Part shown: piece after piece, positions 10,284 through 56,753 of the stretch
How the letters are laid out: the number at the start of each line of letters is the position of its first letter
How positions within the stretch are numbered: position 1 is the stretch's first letter
Source: Cirrosporium novae-zelandiae
Lineage: Eukaryota
Length of the DNA stretch: 64,000 nt
Assembly (NCBI GenBank): GCA_026023565.1
Contig: JAPETS010000009.1
Coordinates: 682,001-746,000, forward strand
Direction of reading: 5' to 3'
Program-made: the position numbers and the translations under genes
Notes under the pieces: generated by a model
The model's database searches: none
What the model saw: the letters and a program-made list of their open reading frames with translations, nothing else
What the model was told of the DNA's origin: nothing

Positions 10284-11860
10284 ATGCGCGTCACTCATTT
10301 CTCGCAAGCAGCCGGCGCTGCTATTGTTGTGCTGGCTGCTATTGCCGAAGCCAAGCACAGCGGCCCTCATCAAGATGTTCTCCCAAAGAGACATTTGCAT
10401 CATCGACAGCCTGTTCCAGAAACACTATCGTTGAATGAAACTCTTGCGGCTGGAGGGGAACTGAAGAAGAGAGGACAATGTCCATTTCCCACTGATGCCG
10501 GTTTAGTCGCCGTTACTCCAGATGAAACCAATGGAGGGTGGGCGATGAGCCCAGATCAAGCATGCACACCAGGCACTTATTGCCCATATGCCTGTCCTCC
10601 TGGTCAGGTTGCCATGCAATGGAACCCCTTAGCAATAGCATACGTCTATCCTCTCTCCATGGTAAGTCCCATCACGTTCGAAGAAAGAATGGCCGTACTA
10701 ATTCTGCATAGGATGGTGGACTCTACTGCAATGATGATGGTGAAATGGAGAAGCCGTTTCCCGACCAGCCGTACTGCGTTGATGGCGCGGGCTCAGTTGG
10801 AGTAACTAACAAATGCGATGGCATAGTTGCATTCTGTCAGACTGTATTGCCCGGAAATGAGGCAATGCTTATTCCAACAACCATTGATGACTGGGCAGGG
10901 TTGGCTGTTCCTGACCCCAATTACTGGTTGTCAACTGCTGCTCAGTAAGTCCGCTGACTAATAGCCCCCTGAGGAACAATCTTTAACATGAACCACAGCT
11001 TCTATATAAACCCTCCCGGCACCACCGGTGACGAAGGATGCATCTGGGGCACATCTTCCGACCCCGTTGGGAATTGGGCTCCCTATGTTGCAGGAGCAAA
11101 TCAAGATTCCTCAGGAAATACCTTCATGAAACTCGGCTGGAACCCCATCTATCTTGAGAAAACTACACCATTCCGCGATGAAATGCCATCCTGGGGTGTC
11201 GAAATTTCTTGCGAAGGTGACGGTTGCAATGGCCTTCCATGTGCAATCGATCCCTCCACGAATGGTGTCAATGAAATGGAGGGTGATTCTAGCATTGGAG
11301 CCGGTGGCGCTGCCTTCTGCGTTGTTACTGTCCCCAAAGGCGTCACTGCAAACTACGTCGTCTTTGACGGCAGCGCATCGAGTTCCAGCAGCAGTTCCAA
11401 GAGCTCTTCATCCAAGGCCGCTAGCTCAACGTCGTCGTCCTCTTCCTCATCGTCCTCGCCGACTCCCACGCCCAGTCCGAGTAGTAGCTCACTCGTCCAA
11501 TCCAGCACCTCATCCAGCTGGTCTAGCACCTTTTCGTCTTCTTCATCGTTCTCTAGCTCATCCTCCTCTAGCAGCAGCTCCTCGCCCTCTTCTCTCCTCA
11601 CGACCGTCCGCTCCACAAAGGTAACGCCTGCCTCCTCCGCCCCAACGATCGCATACTCTCCGCATGTCTTCATGGAGAACTCAACTGTCATTCACACAAG
11701 TGGTGCTCGTGTTTCTGCAGGCCCATCCCCTACATCTAGTTCCGCTGACGCCGCCGCCACCACCACCGTGGCAGAATCAGAAAACTCGGCTAGCCAGACA
11801 GATAGAGGCAAGAGCATGTTTGCTCTAGGTGTTATTGCTGGGCTTGCGCTGTTCTTTTAA
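10284..11860 (+). CDS. SUN-family (GH132) cell-wall protein, Adg3/Sun2-like subgroup, probably GPI-anchored (~490 aa, 3 exons)
   Basis: Signal peptide; introns 10662-10711 and 10945-10998; motifs NGGWAMSPDQ, CPYACPPG, GGLYC, FCQTVLPGNE, YINPPG, GNWAPYVAGAN; Ser/Thr tail ending in hydrophobic MFALGVIAGLALFF. Confidence 0.9.
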
Positions 11861-26979: not shown

Positions 26980-27026
<47 letters not shown>

Positions 27027-27176
27027 ATGTGTATGTGTGGATGTATGTATATATGTGTGTGTATGTGTATGTATATGTATATATGTATGTGTATGTGTAT
27101 GTATATGTATATATGTATGTGTATATGTGTATATGTGTACATATGTGTGTGTGAATGTGCGTGTGTGTATGTGTGT
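26980..27176. repeat. Compound (GT)n/(GTAT)/(GTATAT) microsatellite, ~200 bp
   Basis: Alternating purine-pyrimidine tract; source of several spurious ORFs. Confidence 0.92.
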
Positions 27177-30100
27177 ACAGGCATGTCTGCTCATCTTGCT
27201 CCAGGGGAGAGAAAATGTACCCTCAAATCCTTGTAATGAAACTGACCACCAATTCGACGAGAGGCCCACGAAAGTCATTCGAAGCGCGCCGAGAGGATGG
27301 AAAGCTCTGTTTAGGGCCACTTAGGCTGATCGAGATTCCTACTGGATTTGGCTACATCAAACCTTGTCAGACTGACCGTTATCTTCAGGGGCAATAGACG
27401 ACGGGGAAGACGGAAGGAGGAAGTTTGAATTCTTCTGCCAGACCATGGGCACTGGATCCGAACAACATCACACAAAGTATTTTTTTTTTCTTTCCTTCTA
27501 TCTTTTCCCCCCAGTCGGACGACTAGCCGTAATTTAAGTATCAGATTCATTTATTTTACGTGCATATTCAAACAAATCTTTTTTAGAATTTTTAAATCCA
27601 CTCCTAATAATAAGTGTAAGGCTGGAGAACACATGGGATAATGAAAGAACGAGTAATGGAAAGCCAACCCCCATTGATGGCGAGTAAGTGGGTGAGTTGT
27701 CACAAGGTCAAAAGTTGAAGTTGGGCGTTCATACTCTTACTTCTCTCCTCTTTCTCATTTCCTATTCCCCATTTCCCACTTTCTATTTTTCCCCAATGTC
27801 CCAAAATCTATTTCAGAAGAACGGTGTGGACAATGTGTAAAACGAGACTATCCGAGGGCTCCGTCATCGAACCAACCCACCAGCAGATGTCATGATTTTC
27901 GGCAGGGGTTATCCCCCCAAGGTGACCCAGTCCAATGGGAATTCGTGATAAAGTCAGATGGTCATTAGATGGTCAATCGCTCACTTGCGCACTGCCCTAT
28001 CCCACTATGGCGGAGCAATAAGAAGAATTAACTTATGAAGGACCAAAGGAAGAGATTGGGCATACATGGGAGACAATTGGAACAATTGAAAATAGTTGGA
28101 AAAATAATTACGAAGGACCCCCCCTCCCCCCGGATCTCTCTGGCTACCTTGTTCTCTGACTTAACTGTTTTCGACTAATAGTCTCCTTCCAAACCATCCA
28201 GTCAAACCATAATCGGTCCAGGACTGCTAGCTTAGACCGGACAAGTGGGAAATGGAGCCACGACTAGAATCCTGTCCTACGGTCCCTACAGTACGTTCTT
28301 GTGGCTCTGTCGAAGGGGCTCCCTTTCTTTTCGGTCAAACCAACTCTTACCGGAACTTGACCTGGGGAAGTCGGAATTCATCGACGGTTTCATTAGATCG
28401 TCCTACCCTGGCTCGTCGAAGCCTTCCAAGGTCCTGGCAAAAGCTTCCAAAATGCTTCCGAGACCTTCCAAGATTATTCCTAATTCATTCATATTTCATC
28501 ATAATCTCCTGGTTGATCATCTCCTCAGCGTCTATCAATTCATTCCGAGTTCCGCTGCGGAAACCATCAAAACGAACTAGGTTCCCTGAGGCTGAGTTCC
28601 TCCACACTCGGGCACGACTCGTCCAGACCAGCTGACGTGGTTTAACTAGGACGTGTAACACCCAGTCGCAACTTGCAAGAAGAGGATTTTTCGTCTGCTC
28701 GGTCCATTTTCGGACGATTTGACATTTTACAATGGCTATCAGTTGCCAGCTGCCAGATCATCCATGTACGATACTATCAAGCATGAAAACCTGTAGAGAA
28801 GCGAGCGGTGTAGGGCCGAGCCCTCCTCCGCCTCATATTGATTGGTTTAATGGCTTTTTTTTTTCTAGTCTCTTATTTTGATCAGGCTGGCACGCTGGAA
28901 GGATGAGAAAGACCAAGAATTATTATCATGGAAAAAAGATCGACTATTCCTCCATTACGGTGAAAGCTGACTACTCGTACAATGACATGTGTGACAGTAG
29001 CAGGGGTCGACATTTAATAGTATGGGGGTGGAAAGTCAAGCTTCTCGACGAGTTACTTGAGTAGATACAAGCTGGCTACTGCTTATTGGAAAATTACAAA
29101 GATACAGAGTAATTAACTCATGGAGGGATGAGGGGGGGGGGAGGGGGAAATAAAAAGAAAAAAAGGAAAAAATAAAGCCGATTGGCTTCCTTAAAAAAAT
29201 ACCAGAACAGTGGTAAGACTAAGGAGCGCAAAGGCGGGCTGCACTGCAAATAATGCATGCCATATGCCATATGCCATTCGTGCCATAGAGATGATTGCCC
29301 TAATCCCTAATCATTATTATTAATAAGTGGATGATGCCATAAAAATTCGCTACAAGGGCTCTTTCTTTTCTCTCCTTTAGATGCATAATCTACTTTTCTT
29401 TCCCAGCTTCCAGTTTTCAAATGTCTTGACCAAACATTTGGGTCTTTTTTTTTTCCTTTACATAGAGGCAGCCACTGATAGTCGGGTTTGGGTAAGAATT
29501 CTAGTAAGACTTGCGAAAACCAGAAACATCTAAAATAGCGGTATTGGGTCATGTGAGTCATTTCGTAAAACTCCTGCGCTGGCAATCTGACAGGCCCTTT
29601 GGGCAGTTCCGACATCATTCAATTTAGAAGGTGGATTGGGTGTATGAAGGAGATAAATGGGTGGATGATGATGATGATTAGGATGATTATGATGATATTT
29701 TTTGTCTTGTTGACTGTTGTCCATGTCGACTTGATTTTAGCAAAGAGTCATCCCAAGTCTTGTTCCGAGGCTGACGATTTCATTTGATCAAAACATATCT
29801 ATCTATGGATACCACGGATATAACCACTTAGTAAAGATCCGACATTAGCAAAAGACGAAAGAAAAGGTCGGTCAAGGCTCGGCAGGCTGCGTCCGTTGAA
29901 TTGACTTGGATTGTGGTCTCTTCTGATGATGATGATGATGATGACAATGGTGATCAATTATCTATAATAAAAAGCCAATGGCAATTGGGGAAGTACAACA
30001 AAAAGGAATTAAAAAAAGGGGCAATTGACAGGGATGGGGTTAGTTAATCTTGGGGAAATAAGATCATTTTCCGAAACTGACGAAACCAACGAAACACCTG

Positions 30101-31089: not shown

Positions 31090-31206
31090 ATTCAATCAAC
31101 CATTCAATCAATCAATCAATCAATCAATCAGTCAGTCAATCAATCAGTCAGTCAATCAATCAGTCAGTTAATCAATCAGTCAGTTAATCAATCAGCCATC
31201 CATCCA
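31090..31206. repeat. (TCAA)/(TCAG) tetranucleotide microsatellite
   Basis: CAATCAATCAATCAGTCAGTCAAT... run. Confidence 0.9.
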
Positions 31207-41771: not shown

Positions 41772-44062
41772 ATGGCACTATTACAACCACGACTTTATCA
41801 GAAAGAACCTCCAGACATTCAGAATGGTCTGGATAATAATCCAACATTGCTTGTTAGTTGGTGGTGTACCTGTTTTGCTCTCGTCATCATTCTTGTTCGT
41901 CTCTGTGGTCGTTATGTGAGAGTCGAGAGATGGTTTCGTGAAGACAAAGCCATGGCATTAAGCATTATCCCGTTGATGATTCGGATGGGATTTGTTCATG
42001 TGGTTCTGATATGGGGAACCAACAATACGAAGACGGAAGGGTTGTCCAACTTGGACATCCATCACCGTTCAATTGGCAGCAGGCTTGTTTTGGCTTCCAG
42101 GATTTCCTATGTTGCCTTGTGAGTTGCCTCGAAACTTCTTGATAATACAATTTGCTGAGGCTACATCTCAGTATCTGGATGGCCAAGTTTACCGTTTCCG
42201 AATTTCTCAAACGTCTGATGAGTGCTCAATGGAGAGAGTCTTATGAGAGGATCCTCGATTTCGTTCGGTATTTCTTGATTATCACCTTTATCGCTGTCTT
42301 TATCGCCACTTTATCCGAATGTCAACCATTTGATCACTACTGGCAGGTAGTTCCTGATCCAGGACCGAAATGTCGCCAGGGTTATGCTCAGCTCATCGCA
42401 ATGGGTGTTTGCGACATCATCACCGATGTTATTCTAGTCATCTTTCCAATCCCTATGGTGCTAGTCAGCAACATGAGATTAAAACGGTAAATTGTTCCAA
42501 AAGACTTTGGAAGTGCCTAACTAAGACTGGGTAGGAAAATATCATTGACGTTGCTGTTCTCCATGTCACTTTTCATGGTCGCAATAACTTCATACCGAGT
42601 CCCGAGTGTAATTAACCGTCATGGCGCTCAACAATATCGGACTCTCCTCGCCTCTTTGGAAATCCTTGCTGCAGCTGCAATTACCAACTCTATAGTCATC
42701 GGCTCTTTCATCCGTGACCGCGGTGTAAAGAAGCAGAAATTCAAGTACGGTTCCGTCTCTACCAAAAGCATGGATCGAGCAGGCACTCGCAGAAGCACCT
42801 TTACCTATCAAAGTTGGGGAAGCGACGCCGATCTAGTGGGTGGTCTTGGGATGCGTCTAGGTCCTGAATTCGAAACCCCCCACGGATCGGTTCCTCGTCC
42901 TGCTCCTGTTGCTCTTCCAGCCAGTTTCACGAGTGATGACGTTATGACTGGTGGAATAGATCCAAATTGGCAATTCCCGCCTAAATCGAACACTTCTACC
43001 CCTAGCTCCATCTCCTTCAAGGACCCAGCAGACCTCGAAGGTGATCCCAATGTTGTGGACATCCCCCTCCGCACACACAAACAACCATCCGGGTCCATCT
43101 CATCCGGCCCCACGATCGCCGCCGGAAAAATATCTTTTTTTGACGTTGGCGGTCTCCTGGACGCCACGACTCCGCCGCCATCAACACCCTCTCGCCGCAC
43201 ATCTTCTTCTGCATTCACGCAAACCATAACCAACGACTTTGCAAACGCCTCTCCCCGGACTCATCATCCGCATCGTAATAATAGCTGCCTCTCGCCCCAC
43301 GGTGGGCGCAACGAGGCGAGCAGCGAAACCCCATTAATGTCTCGGAGACATAGCTCTCCGACTCGCGCATTTGAACGAACTCGTCGATTGGACTCTTCTG
43401 CGGGTATTCCAGCCGCGGTAAGGGAATTGGACGAATCGCGCTCTCCCTCTCTACGACTTGGACCACCAAGCGGCGTTCCCACTCCTAGACTGAGGAGACA
43501 AGAAAGTGATATTAGTCTCCAGGATGCAGGAGGCCTATTAGGTCCGTCTCCTCGAACAATAGGAGCATCCTCATCCCCCAGAAGAAGGGAAAGTCGTTGG
43601 ACGAATCCACGCCGACCTGGTTTTCGCAGGGCGCTTCCTTCGGGCGTACCGACACCGCGGTTACAACGCCAGGAAAGCGAAATCAGCTTGCAGGATCCTG
43701 GTGGTCTCTTGGACCTTTCGGGAGCAGCACAGCAACATAATTCCCGGTCGGCGTTGCCACCAGGTACTGTGACTGGAGCCCAGGGTCCGCAGATTCAGTT
43801 GAGAGGAAGGGAAAGCGAAATCGGCCCGCATGATACCGGAGGTTTACCATCAATGCCCTCGGAAGTATCACCACCACTACCATCACCATCACCACTTCAG
43901 CGCTACCGATCCGTATCCCCCCCTTCCCCAACCACAACTACCGCACCTCGCCACCCAACTTACTATAATACCCCTCCTTCCCCAAGCACCCAGAGCCCCC
44001 ATATAAGAAGAAATGACAGCGACATCAGCTTACAAGATGTTGGTGGATTACTAGGACCCTAA
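41772..44062 (+). CDS. PTH11-like (fungal rhodopsin-domain) integral membrane protein without CFEM, long disordered C-tail (~729 aa, 3 exons)
   Basis: Introns 42119-42171 and 42487-42534; about 7 hydrophobic segments, ECQPFDHYWQVVPDPGPKC loop, DIITDVILVIFPIP motif. Confidence 0.82.
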
Positions 44063-45725: not shown

Positions 45726-48700
45726 TTAAACATAGACATAAACAATCTCACACTCATCACCATCCTCATCGGTGTAGGTACCGGAGCCTGATCCCTCACT
45801 TGTAGAAGTAGAAGAGGAAGAGGTAGATCCAGTTGCGGCAGCCTCAGCAGCTGAAGAAACAGCAGATCCAGAGGCAGCAGTCTCAACAGCGGCAGCAGCA
45901 GAGGAAACAATAGAGCCCGAGACAACAGGAACCTTGACCATGGTGGTACCGACAGCAGCAACGGAGGTGGAGACCTGGGTTGCATCGGCAGGGCAGTTAG
46001 TGATGCTGCTAGCACACTTTGTAATTGTGACAAGGGAAGTTTCATAGACAGTGCTGGCAATGGAGGTATATGAGGTAACCTGCGCGGAAGCGGCGGCGGC
46101 GGCAGATGTGGCGGCAGTCTCAACAGCGGCAGCACCAGATGTTACAGCAACAGTCTCAACAGCAGCAGCGGCCGAAGAAACGGCAGCAGCAGCGGTAGAG
46201 ACGGCAACAGCTGAGGAGGTCACGACGGGAACACGGATGGCAGTTGTACCGACAGCGGCAACCGAGGTGGAGACCTGGGTTGCGTCGGCAGGGCAGTTGG
46301 TGATGCTGCTGGCACATTTTGTGACGGTTACGACAGATGTCTCGTAAATGGTGCTGATGGAGGTGCTGTAGGAGGTTACGGCCACATAGGAGGATGCAGC
46401 AACGGCAGCGGCGGTTGAGGTCACAGGGACGACGGTGGCAGCGGCGGAGGAGCCAGCGACTGCAGCTGCCGAGGAAGCTGCGGGGACGCTTGAGGTGCCG
46501 ACAGCAGCCTCAACGGAGGAAGCAACTGGGGCAGCTGAAGAAGCTACGGGGACGCTTGAGGTGCCGACAGCAGCTTCAACAGAGGAAGCAACTGGAGCAC
46601 TTGAACCGGCTGCTGCTGCGACAGAGGAAACGGCAGCGGCGGCAGATGGGGTAACGGTGACGTAGACAGCAACAGTGCTTACGGCCTGGACAGTGGTAGA
46701 AACAACCTCGACTTGGGAAGCAGCTGGGCAGTTGGTGACATCAGCAGCGCAAGATGTGATGGTGACAACAGAGGTCTCGTAGATGGTAGAAATCATCTTG
46801 GTAACGGTGGCAGATTGGGCAGCGGAGCTTCCAATGGCTTCAGCAGCGCTTGAGACAGCTGGGACGGCGGATTCAGATGGAACAGAGCCGGTGCCAGAAG
46901 GAGCGACACCAGTTGCGGCATAGCCAGATGGGACAAAGCCAGATTGAAGTGGGGAAGCTGAAGCTGCAACGGGAGCAGATGAGCCAACGGCTGCGACAGC
47001 GCTAGAGGCGGCAGGAACAGCAGATCCGGAGAATGGAATAGCAGCGCTGGAACCAACGGCGGCAGCAGCAGTTGAAGCACTTGCAGAAGCAACAGCGACA
47101 GCGGTGCTGACTGCAGAGACGGTGGCAGAGGCGTAGGGGCAATAATAAACGGTGCTATGGACATCGACGGTAACCACTTGCTCGGAGGCGGTATAGGTTC
47201 CAGGGGTGAAAGTAATGGCGGTGCTACCTGCTTGGAGAGTAGTTGCAACGGTCATAACTGTGGTGGAAGCAGCAAGGGTATAAGTTCCGGGGCTGGTTAA
47301 AGCAGTGGTAATGGCGGCAACAGCAACTTGAGATGAGACTGCAACAATGCTTGAGCCGGCAGCAACTGGGACGGAAGAGGTTCCGACAGCAGCAACGGCG
47401 GATGACACGGCTGGGACAGCAGAAGTTCCGACAGCAGCAACAGCAGATGATACAGCCGAGGAAGCTACAGCTACAGTGGTAGCGCTAACAGTTGCCGAGG
47501 CGTACGGGCAATAGTAGACAGTTGAAGTGACATCAACAGTGATGACCTGTTCAGATGCGGTATAAGTTCCGGCGGTGAATGTCAAGGTTGTGGATCCAGC
47601 TTCCAGGGTAGCGGCTTCGGTCAGAACAGCGGTGGTGGCAGCAATGGTGTAAACACCAGTTGAAGTCAAAGCAGTAGTCAATTGTTCTTGGTTGGCAGCA
47701 ACAGAAGAAGTGCCGACAGCAGCGAAAGATGAACCAGCAACTGGGGCAGAAGTTCCAACAGCGGCGAAAGATGATCCGGATGGAGCATATGAAACACCGG
47801 CGACACCTGAGGGAGAGACACCAGATGGGGAAGCACCGGATGGAGCATATCCAGAAGCTGAAACGGCATAAGAAACACCAGCTGAAGTTCCGATGGCAGC
47901 GACGGCTGAAGATAGAGGAGAAGCTGAAGCGGAAACGGCGGTAATAGCTGCAGATGAGGCGCTCACAGTTGCGCTGGCATATGGGCAGTAGTAAACTGTA
48001 GATGTAACATCGACAGTAACGACTTGTTCGGAGGCAGTATAAGTACCAGCAGAGAAGGTGAGGGTCGTGGATCCAGCTTCTAAAGTAGTAGCTTCAGTGA
48101 GGACTGCAGTGGTGGCAGCAATAGTGTAAACACCAGTTGATGTCAAAGCTGTGGTAAGAGCAGCGACTTGGCTATTGGCGACAACAGATGAAATACCAGC
48201 TGCAACAGATGAACCTGAGACAGGGGCAGAGGTGCCAACAGCAGCGACAGCAGAAGAACCAACGGGGGTGGTGCCAACGGCAGCAACAGCAGAAGAACCA
48301 GCAGCGGAAGTGGCAACAGCAGCAACAGCAGAGGAAACTGTGGCAGAAGCGTATGGGCAGTAGTAAACAGTCGATGTAACATCAACGGTAACAACTTGGG
48401 CAGAAGCAGTGTAGGTACCAGCAGTGAAAGTGAGAGTTGTAGATCCTGCTTCTAGGGTGGTAGCTTCAGTTAAAACAGCTGTAGTGGCGGCGATAGTATA
48501 AACACCAGTAGAGGTGAGGGCAGTTGTCAAGGCAGCGACTTCAGTGTTGGCAGCAACGGATGAAACACCAGCTGCAACAGATGAACCGGCGGCAGAGGTG
48601 CCAACAGCAGCAACAGCGGAAGAACCAGCAGCGGAAGTGGCAACAGCAGCAACAGCAGAGGAAACTGTGGCAGAAGCGTATGGGCAGTAGTAAACAGTCG

Positions 48701-51494
48701 ATGTAACATCAACGGTAACAACTTGAGCAGAAGCAGTATAAGTACCGGCAGAGAAAGTAAGGGTGGTAGAACCAGCCTCCAAGGTTGTAGCCTCGGTCAA
48801 GACGGCGGTTGTAGCTTCGATGGTATAGACACCAGCTGAGGTCAAAGCGGTTGTCAAAGCGGCGGCGGCAGAGCTTACAACAATTCCAGAGCTTGCAGCG
48901 GGGACAGAGCCAGTGCCAGAGGCACCGACACCATAAGCGCCAGTTCCATAAACAGCAGCAGATGCTGAGGATTGGCCAACAGCGGCAACAGAAGAACCAG
49001 CAGCGGAAGTGGCAACAGCAGCAACAGCAGAGGAAACTGTAGCGGAAGCATATGGGCAGTAGTAAACAGTGCTTGTTACGTCAACAGTCACGACCTGGGC
49101 GGAAGCAGTGTAGGTACCAGCAGAGAAGGTCAAAGTAGTGGATCCAGCTTCCAAAGTAGTAGCTTCAGTGAGGACAGCAGTAGTAGCAGCAATAGTGTAA
49201 ACACCAGCTGATGTGAGAGCGGTTGTCAAAGCAACATCGTTAGATCCAGTAGCAAAACTGCCACTAACACCAGCGGAGACACCACCGGAAACAGATGCGG
49301 ATGGGAAAGATCCACCTGTGGCGACACCTACGGAAACACCACCGGAAACAGCGGCTGAGGTTCCAAAGGCACCAACAACCGAAGAGACAGCAGCGGAGCC
49401 AGAGACACCTGCGGAATATCCAGCAACCGCAGAAGACTGTGCAGCAGCGGAGCCGACAGGTACAGAAACACCTGCGGAATATCCAGCAGCAGCAGAGGAC
49501 TGGGCTACGTAGGCAGAAGATTGACCAACGGCAGCAACAGCTGAGGAATAAGAAACGGCCTGAGCAGACGAGAAAGACTGGACATCGCTAACAGCAATTG
49601 AAACCATAGCAGTGGAAACAGCGACCAAAGAGGTTGCGACAACAGTGGATGCCGAGTTGGCTGGGCAGTTGGTGACATCAGCAGCGCAGCTGGTGACAGT
49701 GACAACGGTAGTATCATAGACGGTCGAGGCAACTTCAGTCATTGAAGCACCAGCGGCAGAGGATTGACCAACTTGGACAGCTGTGGAGGCAGCATATCCT
49801 TGGGATTGATAACCAGCTTGGGATTGAGCAGCAGAAGCAACACCAGCAGCAGATGATTGACCGAAGGCGGCGGCGGCTGAGGTGACGGCATATCCTTGAG
49901 ATTGGACAGCAGATGAAGCGACAACAGCAGCAGCGGACGATTGACCGAAAGCGGCGGCAGCCGAGGTAGCAGCGTATCCTTGGGATTGAGCACCACCTTG
50001 GGATTGAGCACCACCTTGGGATTGAGCACCACCTTGGGATTGGACTGCAGATGAAGCAACAACGGCGGCGGATTGGCCGAAGGCATCGGCAGCTGAAGAC
50101 TGGGCAACGGCTACCGCAGATGAAGCAGCATAGCCCTGGGCAGCGGAAGAAGCCTGGACAGCTTGAGCCGATGAGTGAGATTCGACTTCGCTGACAGCCA
50201 TGGAAACCATAGCAGTAGAAACAGCCGAGTAGGAAGTCTGGACCACAGCAGTGGCGGAATCTGCTGGGCAGTTTGTAACATCAGCGGCACAGCTAGTAAC
50301 GGTGACAACGCTAGACTCGTAGACGGTGGAGGCGACCTCGGTCATAGAAGCACCATCGACATCCCTCTCGGAGCTAGAGTTTGTGCTAGTAGTGGAGCTG
50401 GAGGCTGATGAGAGAGCAGCTTCAATACCGTAGTAAGCAGGCTTCTTGGCGAGGGAAGAATTCCATGGGCAGGCGTCACCGTATCCGGAGAAGGTATCGG
50501 GAACCCAAGAATATTCATCATCAAAGTCCCAGAGAGTGATACCGACACAGCCATCAACCTCCAGACAAGCGGAGACAACGGTGTTGTAATCGGTTTTTTG
50601 TTGAGCAAGCTTGCTAGAGGTGCTTGGCAGCTCCATCTTGATATCCAATTCGGTTTGAGCTACCTCGACGCCAAGAGCAGTGAAGCTCTCCATGGCCGAG
50701 ACCAAGTCGGTCTGGTCTGGAAGTTCACCGACAGTGAAATGATATTGAAGACCAACACCATCAATTTGGATTCCCCGGTTTTGGATGTCCTGGACCAGAG
50801 CGAGGGCGGCAGTGAGTTTGTCACCGGAATATTCGATGTTGTAATCATTGTAGTAGAGCTTGACACCAGATGGAGCGGCAGCGGCGGCAGCCTCAAAGGC
50901 AATGGGAATATAAGCTTCACCAATGTATTGGTACCAAACGGAGTCTCGGTAAGATCCGTCCGAGTCGAGAGCTTCGTTAACAACATCCCATGCATAACAG
51001 TCGGAACCGAAATGGTCGACGAGGTTGGTAATATGGTTCTTGAGAACAGCGGTAAGGGTTGCATTTGTCCAGGAGCCACTGGTAACCCATGATGGCAGTT
51101 GTTCGTGCCAGATTAGATTATGGCATCGCAGGAGTTGACCATTAGTAGAAGCAATTTCTTGCATAACAGAGGCATCGGAGTAATCGAATGTTCCTTGCGT
51201 GGGCTCGGTATATTCAAACTTGAATGCATGTTAGCAACGATTTACCTCGATAGAAGAGAATGGACAACGTACCTTCATGGCATTTCCCTCCGTCAGTTGT
51301 CCGAACATGGACGTGTCATTCAGAATGGTCATGTAGGCATCGTCACTGAGTTCGTCGGTTCCAGGTATATCGGCAGCAGTACCGAAATATGTGAGACCGG
51401 CGGATGTGGCGAGAGAATTGAGGCCTGAAGAGGCAGCGGCGGCCAGCGAGGCAGAGCCCACCAGGCCTAATAAGGCGGTTGAATGAGTGTGCAT
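45726..51494 (-). CDS. Secreted GH10 endo-1,4-beta-xylanase with giant repetitive Ser/Thr/Ala/Val tail (~1904 aa, 2 exons)
   Basis: Signal peptide [20 protein letters not shown]; intron 51272-51219 joins GNAMK|FEYTEP; GH10 motifs [14 protein letters not shown] (acid/base), [20 protein letters not shown] (nucleophile), GITLWDF..YSW; frame stays open for 5.4 kb. Confidence 0.93.
47117..49232 (-). repeat. Six copies of a ~67-aa (~200 nt) coding repeat inside the GH10 tail
   Basis: Consensus ALTTALTS(A/T)[27 protein letters not shown](S/T)AGTYTAS(A/E)[22 protein letters not shown] at about 49232-49035, 48860-48662, 48533-48333, 48161-47962, 47681-47484, 47313-47117. Confidence 0.95.
49978..50040 (-). 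repeat. 18-bp coding tandem repeat (SQGGAQ) about x3
   Basis: CCTTGGGATTGAGCACCA repeated in tandem on the + strand. Confidence 0.9.
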
Positions 51495-54399: not shown

Positions 54400-56753
54400 C
54401 TAAACGCTAACCACAACACTCGCACTCCCTCTCAAGTCCCGACTCGAAGCCCCTACCGAAAATGTATAAGTGCCTCCTACGATCATCCACTCCTGTGCGC
54501 TTACGTCCCAAGCACTGAGATCCCTTCTTCTGAGTTCAAATGCTACAGTCGTTGTCTCTCCGGGTTCTAAATACACCCTTTCGAAGCCCCTTAGCTGTCG
54601 GATCGGTTGGGATGCTGCATCGGGGTACGTGATGTAGAGTTGGGGAACCTCGTGTCCAGCAAGAGAACCGTTGTTGGTGACGGGGACAGTAACAGTGAGA
54701 AGAATGTCCCAAAGATCTTCACGGCCACCAACCGAGATTTTACCGCTAGCGTAGCTGGAGACTGTGATTGAACTTGTAGAGGAGCTGGAGTCTGATACCG
54801 TCACATCACCATAATTGAACGTGGTATACGAGAGCCCGTAACCGAATGCATAGCGCGGCGTAATATCTTCCTTGTCGAACCATTTGTAATCGATATAAAC
54901 GCCCTCGGTGAAATTACATTCAGCTGTGTAGCAGATCTTAACTGGGTAATCATCCTCGTTCTTTGCGATGGTGTAGGGAAGGCGTCCTGACGGATTCACG
55001 TCTCCGTATAAAACGTCCGTGATGGAATGACCTGATTCCTGACCCAGAAGCGAGGAATAGAGGACAGCGGTGACGTTCTCGTGATCGATCCATGCTTCGA
55101 GGATGCGGGCAGCGACTGTATTAATGACGACGATGGTGTTGCTGCAGTTACCAGCAACTTCGGTGACGAGGTTGTCTTGGTCGACGTTATAAAGCTCGGT
55201 TCTGTCGGTGCCCTCGCCCGCGAGAGCATTGAGAAAGACGATGCATGCATCGGAATTTGGGGCATAGTTGTCAATGGATGGGTTGACGGCGGTGCCACTT
55301 TGGAGAGCCATGAGTGCTGTAATACTCAAGGTTGAAGGAATGTATGTGTCGTTGAGAATCCAGCGAATCATTGTACCATCTTCAATGGCCCTTTCTGTCA
55401 GGGCTTGCTGGGGTGTAACGAGATAGGGCAGACTGGCCTCTGCACTCCCACTGCCCGTGGCCAGGTGGCCTTGATATATAGGTCCCGAACCTATGATAGT
55501 GAACCCTTGATTTGGTCCGCCAATTGCTGGCCCTGCATGTGCGCCGAATATACTCATTTGATCAAGATCTTTGAGGGGGAGGGCATTATTCTTATTTTTG
55601 AGAAGGATCATAGAAGCAGCACCTGTGGAACGGATGATCTTGCTGTGGCCTGCACGAACGTCACGGAAACTGGTGGTAGAGGCGAGCGAGGGCTGGTTGC
55701 CATCGTCGAGACCTACATAAAAGTATCCAATGACGTTGCGAACGGCCATATCATCAAGACGACCTTGAGTGAACCCATTTTCCCCAATCGATTCAAGCAG
55801 AGATGTATCGTTCCATAGATCTGCATCTCCATAATCCAGCCCATTGATAGCGGATTTTAACCCCGATTTTTGAGCATTGAAATCTGCGTACACCATACCC
55901 GGGAACCCAAGTTCGGTTTTTAGAATACTATTAAGGAGATCATTATTCTCGCACGAATCAGTACCGTTGACTTTGGTCATGGCGCACATGACGGCGCTAA
56001 GACCGGCCTTTACGCCATCATAAAAGGGCCAAAGGTAGGTTTCGTGAAGGGTCTTGTCATCGACATTACTAGAATAGACGGTGGTGGTTGTGGTACTTGT
56101 GTCTGTAGTGCGATTTGTTTCTTGTTCGTTGAGGAGGAAATGCTTCCCTCCAGGGATAACACCTGCATCCGTAAAGGCCTTTACACCTACTCCAAAGGCA
56201 ATTCCGTTCAGATAGCAATCCTGACCTAAGCCCTCGACTAATCTGCCACTCCAAGGTGTCCTTCCTAACACCTCGCTAGTAGGTCCATTAATAACCTGAA
56301 ATCCTTTGAGATAGAACTCGGTTCCAACTGCATAAAGCTGTTCATATATTAGATCTTTATCCCATGTCATTGCCAAAGCGCTCGGGTCACTGAATCCAGA
56401 TACTGCATAATACTTCTGGACACCTTCAGTGCCATCTCCGAAATTAAGAGCTTCAAAGGTGACACTGGAGGAATTAATACTCGAGCCGGTTATGAGGGAA
56501 AGTTTTTCTTCATTGGTTAATTGGGAAACGAAAGCAGCGGCCTTAAGGAATGCGATCGACCAGTCAACGGTGGTGGCTCGAGTTATAAGTTAGTGAAGTG
56601 CCGTCTTGAGGATCATGATCTCTACTTACCACCACTGTCGGTACTGGATGACCCGTCCGAAGTACCATCTCCAGGATGCGACGAAGAGGAAGACGATGAA
56701 CCAAAGATATTCAAAATAGCTGTAACGATAGTGGGAAGACTGGAAAGTTGCAT
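54400..56753 (-). CDS. GH3 beta-glucosidase (BglD-like), probably secreted (~766 aa, 2 exons)
   Basis: ATG 56753, intron 56629-56577; LTNEEK, GRTPWSGRLVEG, KHFLLNEQETNR, ETYLWPFYD, LKTELGFPG, LLKN, GEGTDR, NPSGRLPYT, FGYGLSYTTF, and a C-terminal Fn3-like EVPQLY/LRGFERV region. Confidence 0.92.

What the first reader, a model, noticed from the sequence alone, without database searches (positions are those of the whole stretch)
45726..51494. Giant GH10 xylanase on a ~1550-aa adhesin-like repeat stalk with no GPI signal
Seen: signal peptide, a GH10 domain with both catalytic glutamates (WDVVNE, TELDI) ending near 50410, then ~1550 aa of Ser/Thr/Ala/Val with two Cys-containing repeat families, in one open frame. 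Established: fungal GH10 enzymes are usually ~330-450 aa with at most a linker and CBM1. Inference: a cell-wall- or matrix-tethered xylanase that projects its catalytic head on an O-glycosylated stalk, or an enzyme-adhesin fusion for host or substrate contact.
Basis: partly seen in the sequence, partly recalled or inferred. Interest (0 to 1): 0.8.

Follow-up and report, generated by a model that had tools for sequence, protein, structure and literature searches.

The report
Giant xylanase with cell-wall repeat tail
This fungus encodes a xylan-cutting enzyme five times the usual size, because it carries a long tail built from modules otherwise seen in the fungus's own cell-wall proteins, which probably keeps the enzyme on the hyphal surface instead of letting it diffuse away.

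Summary
The gene is real: minus strand, two exons (54-nt intron with an in-frame stop, so not one open frame), 1904 aa. An intact GH10 head is followed by about 1560 aa ordered A-A-B×6-A-A-A and a C-terminal acidic C-x-x-x-Y-V-Y-V motif, with no GPI-like end. The tail is under purifying selection (B copies: pS 0.43-0.79, pN 0.03-0.21) and shares the head's codon bias, which argues against a chimera. Repeat B is predicted to fold (all-beta, pLDDT 81, no PDB match). In this genome it otherwise precedes non-GPI GH17- and PF11790-type glucan enzymes. Repeat A occurs in GPI-like wall proteins. Shorter database GH10s carry one A (8 of 120) or the terminal motif (4 of 120); none carried B or a comparable tail. 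This was the only GH10 found in the genome, and no GH11 was found. Best reading (0.5): a secreted endoxylanase held in the hyphal wall or sheath by borrowed wall-protein modules. Tethering, a rigid stalk and adhesion are all untested. Verdict: an extreme new variant of a known kind.

The parts
51273..51494 (-). Exon 1 (aa 1-74): signal peptide and start of GH10
   Evidence: weak PF00331 match to profile positions 2-46
51432..51494 (-). Predicted signal peptide, aa 1 to about 21
   Evidence: hydropathy peak 1.87 and A-x-A site; SignalP not run
51219..51272 (-). 54-nt GT-AG intron with branch site GCTAAC and an in-frame TAA
45726..51218 (-). Exon 2 (aa 75-1904 and stop), 1830 codons without a stop
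50421..51425 (-). GH10 catalytic domain (aa 24-340, spans the intron); acid/base E156 at 50973-50975, nucleophile E264 at 50649-50651
   Evidence: PF00331 E 1.8e-86; PDB 7WHA E 2.4e-113; 89 of 95 strongly conserved columns kept; roles of the two Glu from established GH10 knowledge
50199..50354 (-). Repeat A1 (core TVTSC-x6-CPA)
49752..50198 (-). Gln-rich Ala/Ser linker (15% Q) with an 18-nt tandem repeat at 49978-50042
49596..49751 (-). Repeat A2
49029..49232 (-). Repeat B1 (68 aa, GxYT...GTYT...YYCPY, one Cys)
48657..48860 (-). Repeat B2
48330..48533 (-). Repeat B3
47958..48161 (-). Repeat B4 (the copy folded: eight short strands, pLDDT 81, pTM 0.57)
47481..47684 (-). Repeat B5
47112..47315 (-). 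Repeat B6 (most diverged, 76-79% identical to the others tested)
46659..46814 (-). Repeat A3
46224..46379 (-). Repeat A4
45924..46079 (-). Repeat A5
45726..45770 (-). C-terminal acidic run plus C-x-x-x-Y-V-Y-V and stop; not GPI-like
   Evidence: similar ends on L032 and on GH10s P0017, P0026, P0032, P0043

Best explanation
A secreted endo-1,4-beta-xylanase retained at the fungus's own wall or extracellular sheath without a GPI anchor. SHOWN: two-exon gene, intact GH10 active site, tail under protein-level selection, tail modules shared with wall-type proteins of the same genome, no GPI-like end and no dibasic site in the tail. INFERRED: the protein is secreted whole and O-glycosylated on its linkers. 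The six B modules, folded Thr/Tyr-rich beta units that elsewhere precede non-GPI GH17 (Scw11-type) and PF11790 glucan enzymes, bind wall glucan or wall proteins with high avidity. The seven unpaired cysteines (one per B, one in the terminal motif) may add disulfides, and glycans may be cross-linked into the wall. The head then cuts plant xylan at the hypha surface, so released oligosaccharides stay near the producer. The tail replaces CBM1 as the localisation device and points to self instead of to cellulose.
For: Selection on B copies: pS 0.43-0.79 against pN 0.03-0.21 over 15 of 15 pairs, with 591 of 819 differences at third codon positions. A/G at fourfold third positions is 0.21 in the head and 0.15-0.20 in all six tail blocks, against 0.33-0.45 in 10 of 10 other window ORFs. 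B occurs at 3 other loci of G000: before PF11790 (L028, E 1.4e-59), before a GH17-like domain (L029, PDB 4WTP E 8.3e-08), and before DUF7029 (L030). B also matches the N-terminal region of an independent 559-aa GH17-like secreted protein (L046; hhalign 96.6%, E 6.7e-10), whose size and lack of a GPI-like end fit A. fumigatus Scw11p (565 aa, no GPI; PMC5872321 Table 1). A occurs at 4 other loci. Three have GPI-like C-termini read by eye (CFEM protein L031, GH16-like L034, small protein L033). The fourth (L032) ends in the same acidic C-x-x-x-YVYV motif. The B alignment is gap-free over 14 copies and folds with pLDDT 81. Non-GPI wall proteins and glycan-mediated cross-linking are established in filamentous ascomycetes (PMC6638348 passages).
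Against: No direct evidence of localisation, binding or expression. No function is known for A, B or the terminal motif, so this is guilt by association. GH10s with one A or the terminal motif exist on short tails in several fungi and nothing shows that they are wall-bound. L030 carries five B copies on a DUF7029 protein of unknown role, so B is not restricted to glucan enzymes. The B model has only moderate pTM (0.57), rests on 14 sequences from one genome and has no structural match. In PMC6638348 the term 'xylanase' does not occur in the main text, and plant-wall enzymes found in wall preparations were treated as trapped secreted proteins.
Confidence: 0.5

Rival explanations
1. A freely secreted xylanase whose tail acts like an oversized LPMO-type disordered C-terminal region: the terminal Cys motif and the B cysteines drive dimers or larger assemblies that raise avidity for plant wall or slow diffusion in mucilage, without binding the fungal wall.
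For: A lone Cys near the end of a disordered tail drives dimerisation and better cellulose binding in CoAA9A (PMC10990093 passages). The terminal motif sits at the exact C-terminus of 4 of 120 other GH10s and of L032. Colletotrichum GH10s combine one A repeat with a Cys plus basic X283-like end.
Against: The X283 consensus RxHAR is absent and the end here is acidic. This reading does not explain six conserved copies of a module that elsewhere precedes glucan-active wall enzymes.
Confidence: 0.25
2. An enzyme-adhesin: the tail is a glue (beta-aggregating Ala/Val/Thr segments plus Cys repeats) that fixes hyphae to wood or host surfaces or to each other, and the head grips or opens xylan.
For: Size, tandem repeats, Cys motifs and Ser/Thr content match the general adhesin features, and non-GPI adhesins exist (PMC6023273 passages). 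A (C-x6-C) and B (YYCPY) loosely recall the CX4C and WCPL motifs.
Against: No PF13928 match in the gene; no CX4C, no WCPL, no GPI-like end, no dibasic site in the tail. The head keeps a full catalytic site. The B-bearing relatives are enzymes or DUF proteins, not known adhesins.
Confidence: 0.12
3. The head has shifted specificity (for example transglycosylation, or a glycan of the fungus's own wall or matrix), and the protein is a wall-remodelling enzyme like the other B carriers.
For: Y233 in the Q-x-H motif next to the conserved His is seen in 0 of 120 homologues (all G, A, S, T or C); E69 and S91 also differ from near-invariant residues. B elsewhere sits on wall-type enzymes.
Against: All invariant substrate-binding and catalytic residues checked are kept (N71, K74, H107, W151, N155, E156, H234, E264, D266, W304, W312). 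It is the only GH10 found and no GH11 was found in a genome that has GH7 genes.
Confidence: 0.07
4. The long form is not made: assembly chimera, or a transcript that ends or splices out before the tail.
For: No long orthologue was found in three protein searches, and no reads were examined.
Against: One unbroken frame across the junction; head and tail share a codon bias unlike 10 neighbouring ORFs; repeat copies are only 63-84% identical in DNA, with mostly synonymous change, so they are old and not collapsed or duplicated reads. No donor-branch-acceptor candidate of 45-400 nt was found in exon 2. GH10 plus A and GH10 plus terminal motif both have database precedents.
Confidence: 0.06

Closest known systems
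Fungal GH10 endoxylanases (PDB 7WHA and 6JDT; Aspergillus hancockii P0009; Botrytis P0012 and P0016)
   Same: 59-63% identity over the head to P0009, P0012 and P0016; PDB matches E about 1e-113; both catalytic Glu
   Different: No CBM1; tail of 1557 aa against about 160 aa in these; Y233 not seen in 120 homologues
Colletotrichum tailed GH10s (P0027, P0037, P0045, P0055, P0057, P0058, P0059, P0062)
   Same: GH10, no CBM1, S/T/A-rich tail with one repeat A, terminal Cys motif
   Different: Tails of 307-344 aa, one A, no B, basic end; heads 50-53% identical and in a separate clade
GH10s ending in C-x(2-3)-E-Y-x-Y-[VF] (P0017, P0026, P0032, P0043; three named as Neophaeotheca, Teratosphaeriaceae, Elasticomyces)
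   Same: Similar terminal motif on a tail without CBM1
   Different: Tails of 132-154 aa, no A or B. They form their own clade (SH-aLRT 98), which the query does not join; the query's position is unresolved
Scw11-type GH17 non-GPI wall proteins (L046, L029; A. fumigatus Scw11p in PMC5872321)
   Same: Thr-rich module homologous to B, signal peptide, no GPI-like end
   Different: The module is N-terminal to a GH17 there and C-terminal to a GH10 here; one or two copies against six. The link to A. fumigatus Scw11p itself is by size and architecture only; it was not aligned
AA9 LPMOs with disordered C-terminal region and X283 motif (CoAA9A, PMC10990093)
   Same: Secreted plant-wall enzyme, low-complexity tail, lone Cys near the end
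   Different: Different enzyme class; no RxHAR, acidic end; tails there are 24-179 aa
GPI-anchored yeast adhesins and flocculins (Flo1, Aga1, Hwp1, Als)
   Same: Size, N-terminal folded head, tandem Cys-bearing repeats, Ser/Thr-rich spacers (PMC6023273)
   Different: No GPI end, no PF13928 match, C-x6-C and YYCPY instead of CX4C and WCPL, catalytic head

Membership tests
GH10 | PF00331 domain above the curated cut-off | tested here: met
   290.7 bits against cut-off 22.1
GH10 | Acid/base and nucleophile Glu and conserved subsite residues | tested here: met
   E156, E264 and the invariant positions checked; 89 of 95 strongly conserved columns kept
GH10 | Endoxylanase activity | not testable with these tools
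   needs an assay; Y233 is unusual
GH10-CBM1 xylanase | CBM1 | tested here: not met
   no PF00734 match, no QCGG; the one CBM1 found in G000 lies on another contig
GPI-anchored wall protein or adhesin | C-terminal hydrophobic GPI signal | tested here: not met
   last 40 aa: best 11-residue hydropathy 0.55; L031, L033, L034 show the typical end by eye; no GPI predictor was available
GPI-anchored wall protein or adhesin | Adhesion activity | not testable with these tools
   needs an assay
Flocculin type 3 / WCPL-CX4C repeats | PF13928 match, CX4C, WCPL | tested here: not met
   only hit in G000 is on another contig, E 3.75; CX4C 0, CX6C 5, YCPY 6
PIR proteins | DGQ repeat core (motif recalled, not taken from a call) | tested here: not met
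   0 DGQ; the paper passages read gave the ester mechanism but not the motif
X283-bearing disordered C-terminal region | RxHAR after a Cys, basic end | tested here: not met
   no RxHAR; tail has 59 D/E and 6 K/R
Scw11-type N-terminal Thr-rich module (repeat B) | Sequence homology to the region preceding GH17 | tested here: met
   hhalign 96.6%, E 6.7e-10 with L046; 53% identity with L029
Scw11-type N-terminal Thr-rich module (repeat B) | Binding to wall glucan (proposed here, not established for the module) | not testable with these tools
   no functional data found in the passages read
A described Pfam family for repeat B | Pfam match | tested here: inconclusive
   0 of 14 copies reach E below 0.04 in the held Pfam; P0124, which has five B copies, carries a precomputed PF28457 that the held library lacks, so a newer family may cover B

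The most novel reading that the evidence does not exclude
Repeat B is an uncharacterised, compact all-beta wall-binding module without a solved structural relative, normally used to retain non-GPI glucan-remodelling enzymes. This fungus has arrayed six copies, with five A repeats and a Cys-bearing terminal motif, behind its only detected endoxylanase. That would be a GPI-independent, self-tethered plant-wall hydrolase and a transferable surface-display tag.
Probability: 0.3. Interest if true: 0.7.

Novelty: new variant of a known kind. Interest (0 to 1): 0.45.

Why it matters
How non-GPI enzymes stay in the walls of filamentous fungi is only partly explained, and C-terminal tails of CAZymes are usually cut off before study. 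PMC8615602 states that disordered C-terminal regions had not been observed in glycoside hydrolases (passage). This gene is an extreme natural test case with three separable modules (A, B, terminal motif) that recur on other enzymes. If B binds the wall, it names a function for the Thr-rich region of Scw11-type GH17 and PF11790 proteins and shows a fungus privatising xylan breakdown. If not, it is still the longest-tailed GH10 seen in these searches, but a curiosity of one lineage.

Tried and rejected
Expression: no RNA holder was listed, so no reads were laid; this is no evidence either way. B homodimer prediction gave no answer (score 0.00, alignment not used); no evidence either way. Repeat A fold was low confidence (pLDDT 56, pTM 0.24) and was not searched. 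B fold searches: no Foldseek match at E<=0.001 and no chain at Z>=2 among 48,161; this does not show a new fold. Sequence hits of B to designed Pizza propellers were rejected as summed weak repeats (per-stretch E above 50). B against the ESM Atlas gave only scores of 0.81 or less. The word-indexed search with the B alignment found nothing among 8000 candidates (weak evidence, low complexity). No B match in phages. Trees of the head did not place it with either tailed clade (support 0.27; a different position). Sampling was limited to proteins over 478 aa: 66 rows, 30 of those. Genome pattern scans for the terminal motif gave 6 and 3 matches (controls 4 and 0). Only this gene and L032 are in long frames; the other 6 loci lie in frames of 10-31 codons and were dropped. 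One regex hit (P0212) was dropped as not resembling the motif. P0124 reads the same as the L030 frame and was not counted as independent. A xylan gene cluster was considered and rejected: the upstream GH3 is closest to beta-glucosidases. Three look-ups of earlier scan notes returned nothing. Paper searches that found no description of such a protein: (open-access library only; listings and abstract starts seen).
Full report
OBSERVATION. The window is eukaryotic, with intron-bearing housekeeping genes and a Zn2Cys6 factor. It is G000:C118:682001-746000 of a 31.4-Mb, 128-contig assembly. The gene is on the minus strand: exon 1 at 51494-51273, a 54-nt GT-AG intron with an in-frame TAA at 51272-51219, and exon 2 at 51218-45726, giving 1904 aa. 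'One open frame' is therefore wrong for the first 74 aa but right for the rest. The tail frame has 0 stops in 1557 codons against 35 and 42 in the other frames; 500 shuffles gave at most 378 open codons.

HEAD. PF00331 matches at E 1.8e-86 and solved GH10s at about 1e-113. Against the 120 listed homologues the head keeps 89 of 95 strongly conserved columns, including E156 and E264. It deviates at E69, F75, S91, S146, A189 and K268, and has Tyr at the middle position of Q-x-H, seen in 0 of 120. It was the only GH10 found in G000 (1 candidate in each). No GH11 was found (absence is not proven), and one CBM1 and two GH7 loci were found.

TAIL. The order is A, A, B x6, A, A, A, terminal motif, with about 930 aa of linkers that are 23-32% Ser/Thr, 22-46% Ala, 10-27% Val and at most 8% Pro in the eleven inter-repeat linkers. 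A has a C-x6-C pair; each B and the terminal motif have one Cys. The tail has 509 Ser+Thr (33%), 59 acidic and 6 basic residues, and no Lys/Arg pair. The C-terminus is not GPI-like. B copies are 63-84% identical in DNA, with pS 0.43-0.79 and pN 0.03-0.21 in 15 of 15 pairs; A copies show pS 0.55-0.77 and pN 0.07-0.40 in 10 of 10 pairs. A/G at fourfold third positions is 0.21 in the head, 0.17 in the tail and 0.33-0.45 in 10 of 10 other window ORFs. No short-intron candidate with donor, branch and acceptor was found in exon 2. These results make a chimera or a non-coding expansion unlikely and suggest a well-expressed gene (inference from codon bias). No reads were examined.

WHERE THE MODULES COME FROM. 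B has 14 matches in G000: 6 here, 2 in L028, 1 in L029 and 5 in L030. L028 ends in PF11790 (that this is CAZy GH128, a beta-1,3-glucanase family, is recalled), L029 in a GH17-like domain, and L030 has DUF7029. A metagenome scan gave 55 pattern matches, of which 1 was confirmed: L046, a 559-aa secreted GH17-like protein whose N-terminal region matches B. Its size and lack of a GPI-like end fit A. fumigatus Scw11p (PMC5872321, passages and Table 1); I did not align Scw11p itself. A has 11 matches in G000: 5 here, 3 in a CFEM protein (L031), and 1 each in L032, L033 and a GH16-like protein (L034). L031, L033 and L034 have GPI-like ends by eye. L032 ends in nearly the same acidic C-x-x-x-YVYV motif as this gene, and its N-terminal part resembles unnamed ascomycete clusters (score 0.92). 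AlphaFold2 on 14 B copies gave eight short strands, pLDDT 81, pTM 0.57, with no match in the PDB by Foldseek or VIA-align. A newer Pfam entry, PF28457, precomputed on P0124, may cover B but is not in the held library. A gave only a low-confidence hairpin.

HOW WIDESPREAD. Among GH10 relatives of 479-2000 aa (458 hits, best 120 listed), 8 of 120 carry one A repeat (all Colletotrichum), 4 of 120 end in the terminal motif, and 0 of 120 carry B. Among the best 150 of 9745 representatives found with the first 1199 aa of exon 2, 1 of 150 has A (P0058, already counted) and 0 of 150 have B. The longest run at 60% or more S/T/A/V is 1434 aa here against at most 185 aa in the 268 distinct hits. A search at 1006-3203 aa returned 3 hits among 7998 candidates, none an orthologue. 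These searches are biased against low-complexity sequence, and long forms can hide behind shorter cluster representatives, so rarity is likely but not proven. Trees left the head unresolved and outside both tailed clades, which fits repeated, independent gain of such tails, though the sample is biased to long proteins.

MECHANISM. My best reading (0.5) is a secreted endoxylanase retained at the hypha's own wall or sheath by B modules borrowed from non-GPI glucan-remodelling enzymes, helped by unpaired cysteines and glycan cross-links. The gene structure, active site, selection and module sharing are shown. Secretion of the whole chain, glycosylation, binding and localisation are inferred. Rivals: a free, self-associating enzyme like CoAA9A (0.25; PMC10990093, passages), an enzyme-adhesin (0.12; PMC6023273, passages), a head with shifted specificity (0.07), and an artefact or short transcript (0.06). 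Against my reading: no function is known for any of the three modules; L030 shows B on a non-enzyme partner; the tail's Ser/Thr share is under the 40% threshold of PMC3579731 (passages), so a stiff mucin-like stalk is uncertain; and PMC6638348 (passages) treats plant-wall enzymes in wall fractions as trapped secretions.

COMPARISON AND NOVELTY. It is a GH10 by every test possible here. It is not a GH10-CBM1 enzyme, a GPI adhesin, a Flocculin_t3 or WCPL/CX4C protein, a PIR protein (motif recalled; mechanism from passages of 10.1101/2024.07.18.603779) or an X283 protein. PMC8615602 (passages) says disordered C-terminal regions had not been observed in glycoside hydrolases; the database hits show that tailed GH10s are not rare, so the general design is not unique to this gene. 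I found no description of a GH10 with such a tail in searches (open-access library, listings and abstract starts only; passages of 10.64898/2026.03.07.710159 were read and were not informative). No supplements were read. Verdict: real, an extreme new variant of a known kind, interest 0.45. The most valuable lead is repeat B as a candidate GPI-independent wall-binding module.

Noticed in passing
window 54400-56589 (-): GH3 gene upstream on the same strand; closest solved relatives are beta-glucosidases and bifunctional xylosidase/glucosidases. Not clearly a xylan cluster.
   Followed up: partly
L032:2009-3769 (+) (G000:C13, about 704.5-706.3 kb): Protein with an unnamed ascomycete domain, one repeat A and the same acidic C-x-x-x-YVYV end as this gene; no Pfam match.
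   Followed up: partly
L028:2579-4663 (-) and L029:2212-3633 (-): PF11790 and GH17-like secreted enzymes with two and one B copies; the L028 copies are 66-72% identical to this gene's B4, the likeliest kin of the array.
   Followed up: partly
L030:1074-4643 (-): Large secreted protein with five B copies, DUF7029 and a long Ser/Thr/Asp region.
   Followed up: no
P0027, P0037, P0045, P0055, P0057, P0058, P0059, P0062: Colletotrichum GH10s end in Cys plus a basic R/K-rich run with His, much like the X283 tail described for AA9 LPMOs; they might dimerise likewise.
   Followed up: no
window 50742-50744 (-), residue Y233: Tyr in the middle of the GH10 Q-x-H motif, where 120 of 120 homologues have G, A, S, T or C.
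   Followed up: no
window 42521-44062 (+): Pro/Ser-rich frame with repeats of a D-x-G-G-L-L motif, likely the cytoplasmic tail of a membrane protein; converges on this gene; no Pfam match over cut-off.
   Followed up: no
L047, L048, L049 (G000:C59, C48, C39): The only CBM1 found precedes a GH5-like frame (family judged by eye); the two GH7 genes found end without linker or CBM1.
   Followed up: partly
window 10973-11860 (+): SUN-family beta-glucanase exon (PF03856), another wall enzyme in the window.
   Followed up: no
window 26980-27177 and 31092-31195: Long degenerate TG/TA and TCAA microsatellites.
   Followed up: no
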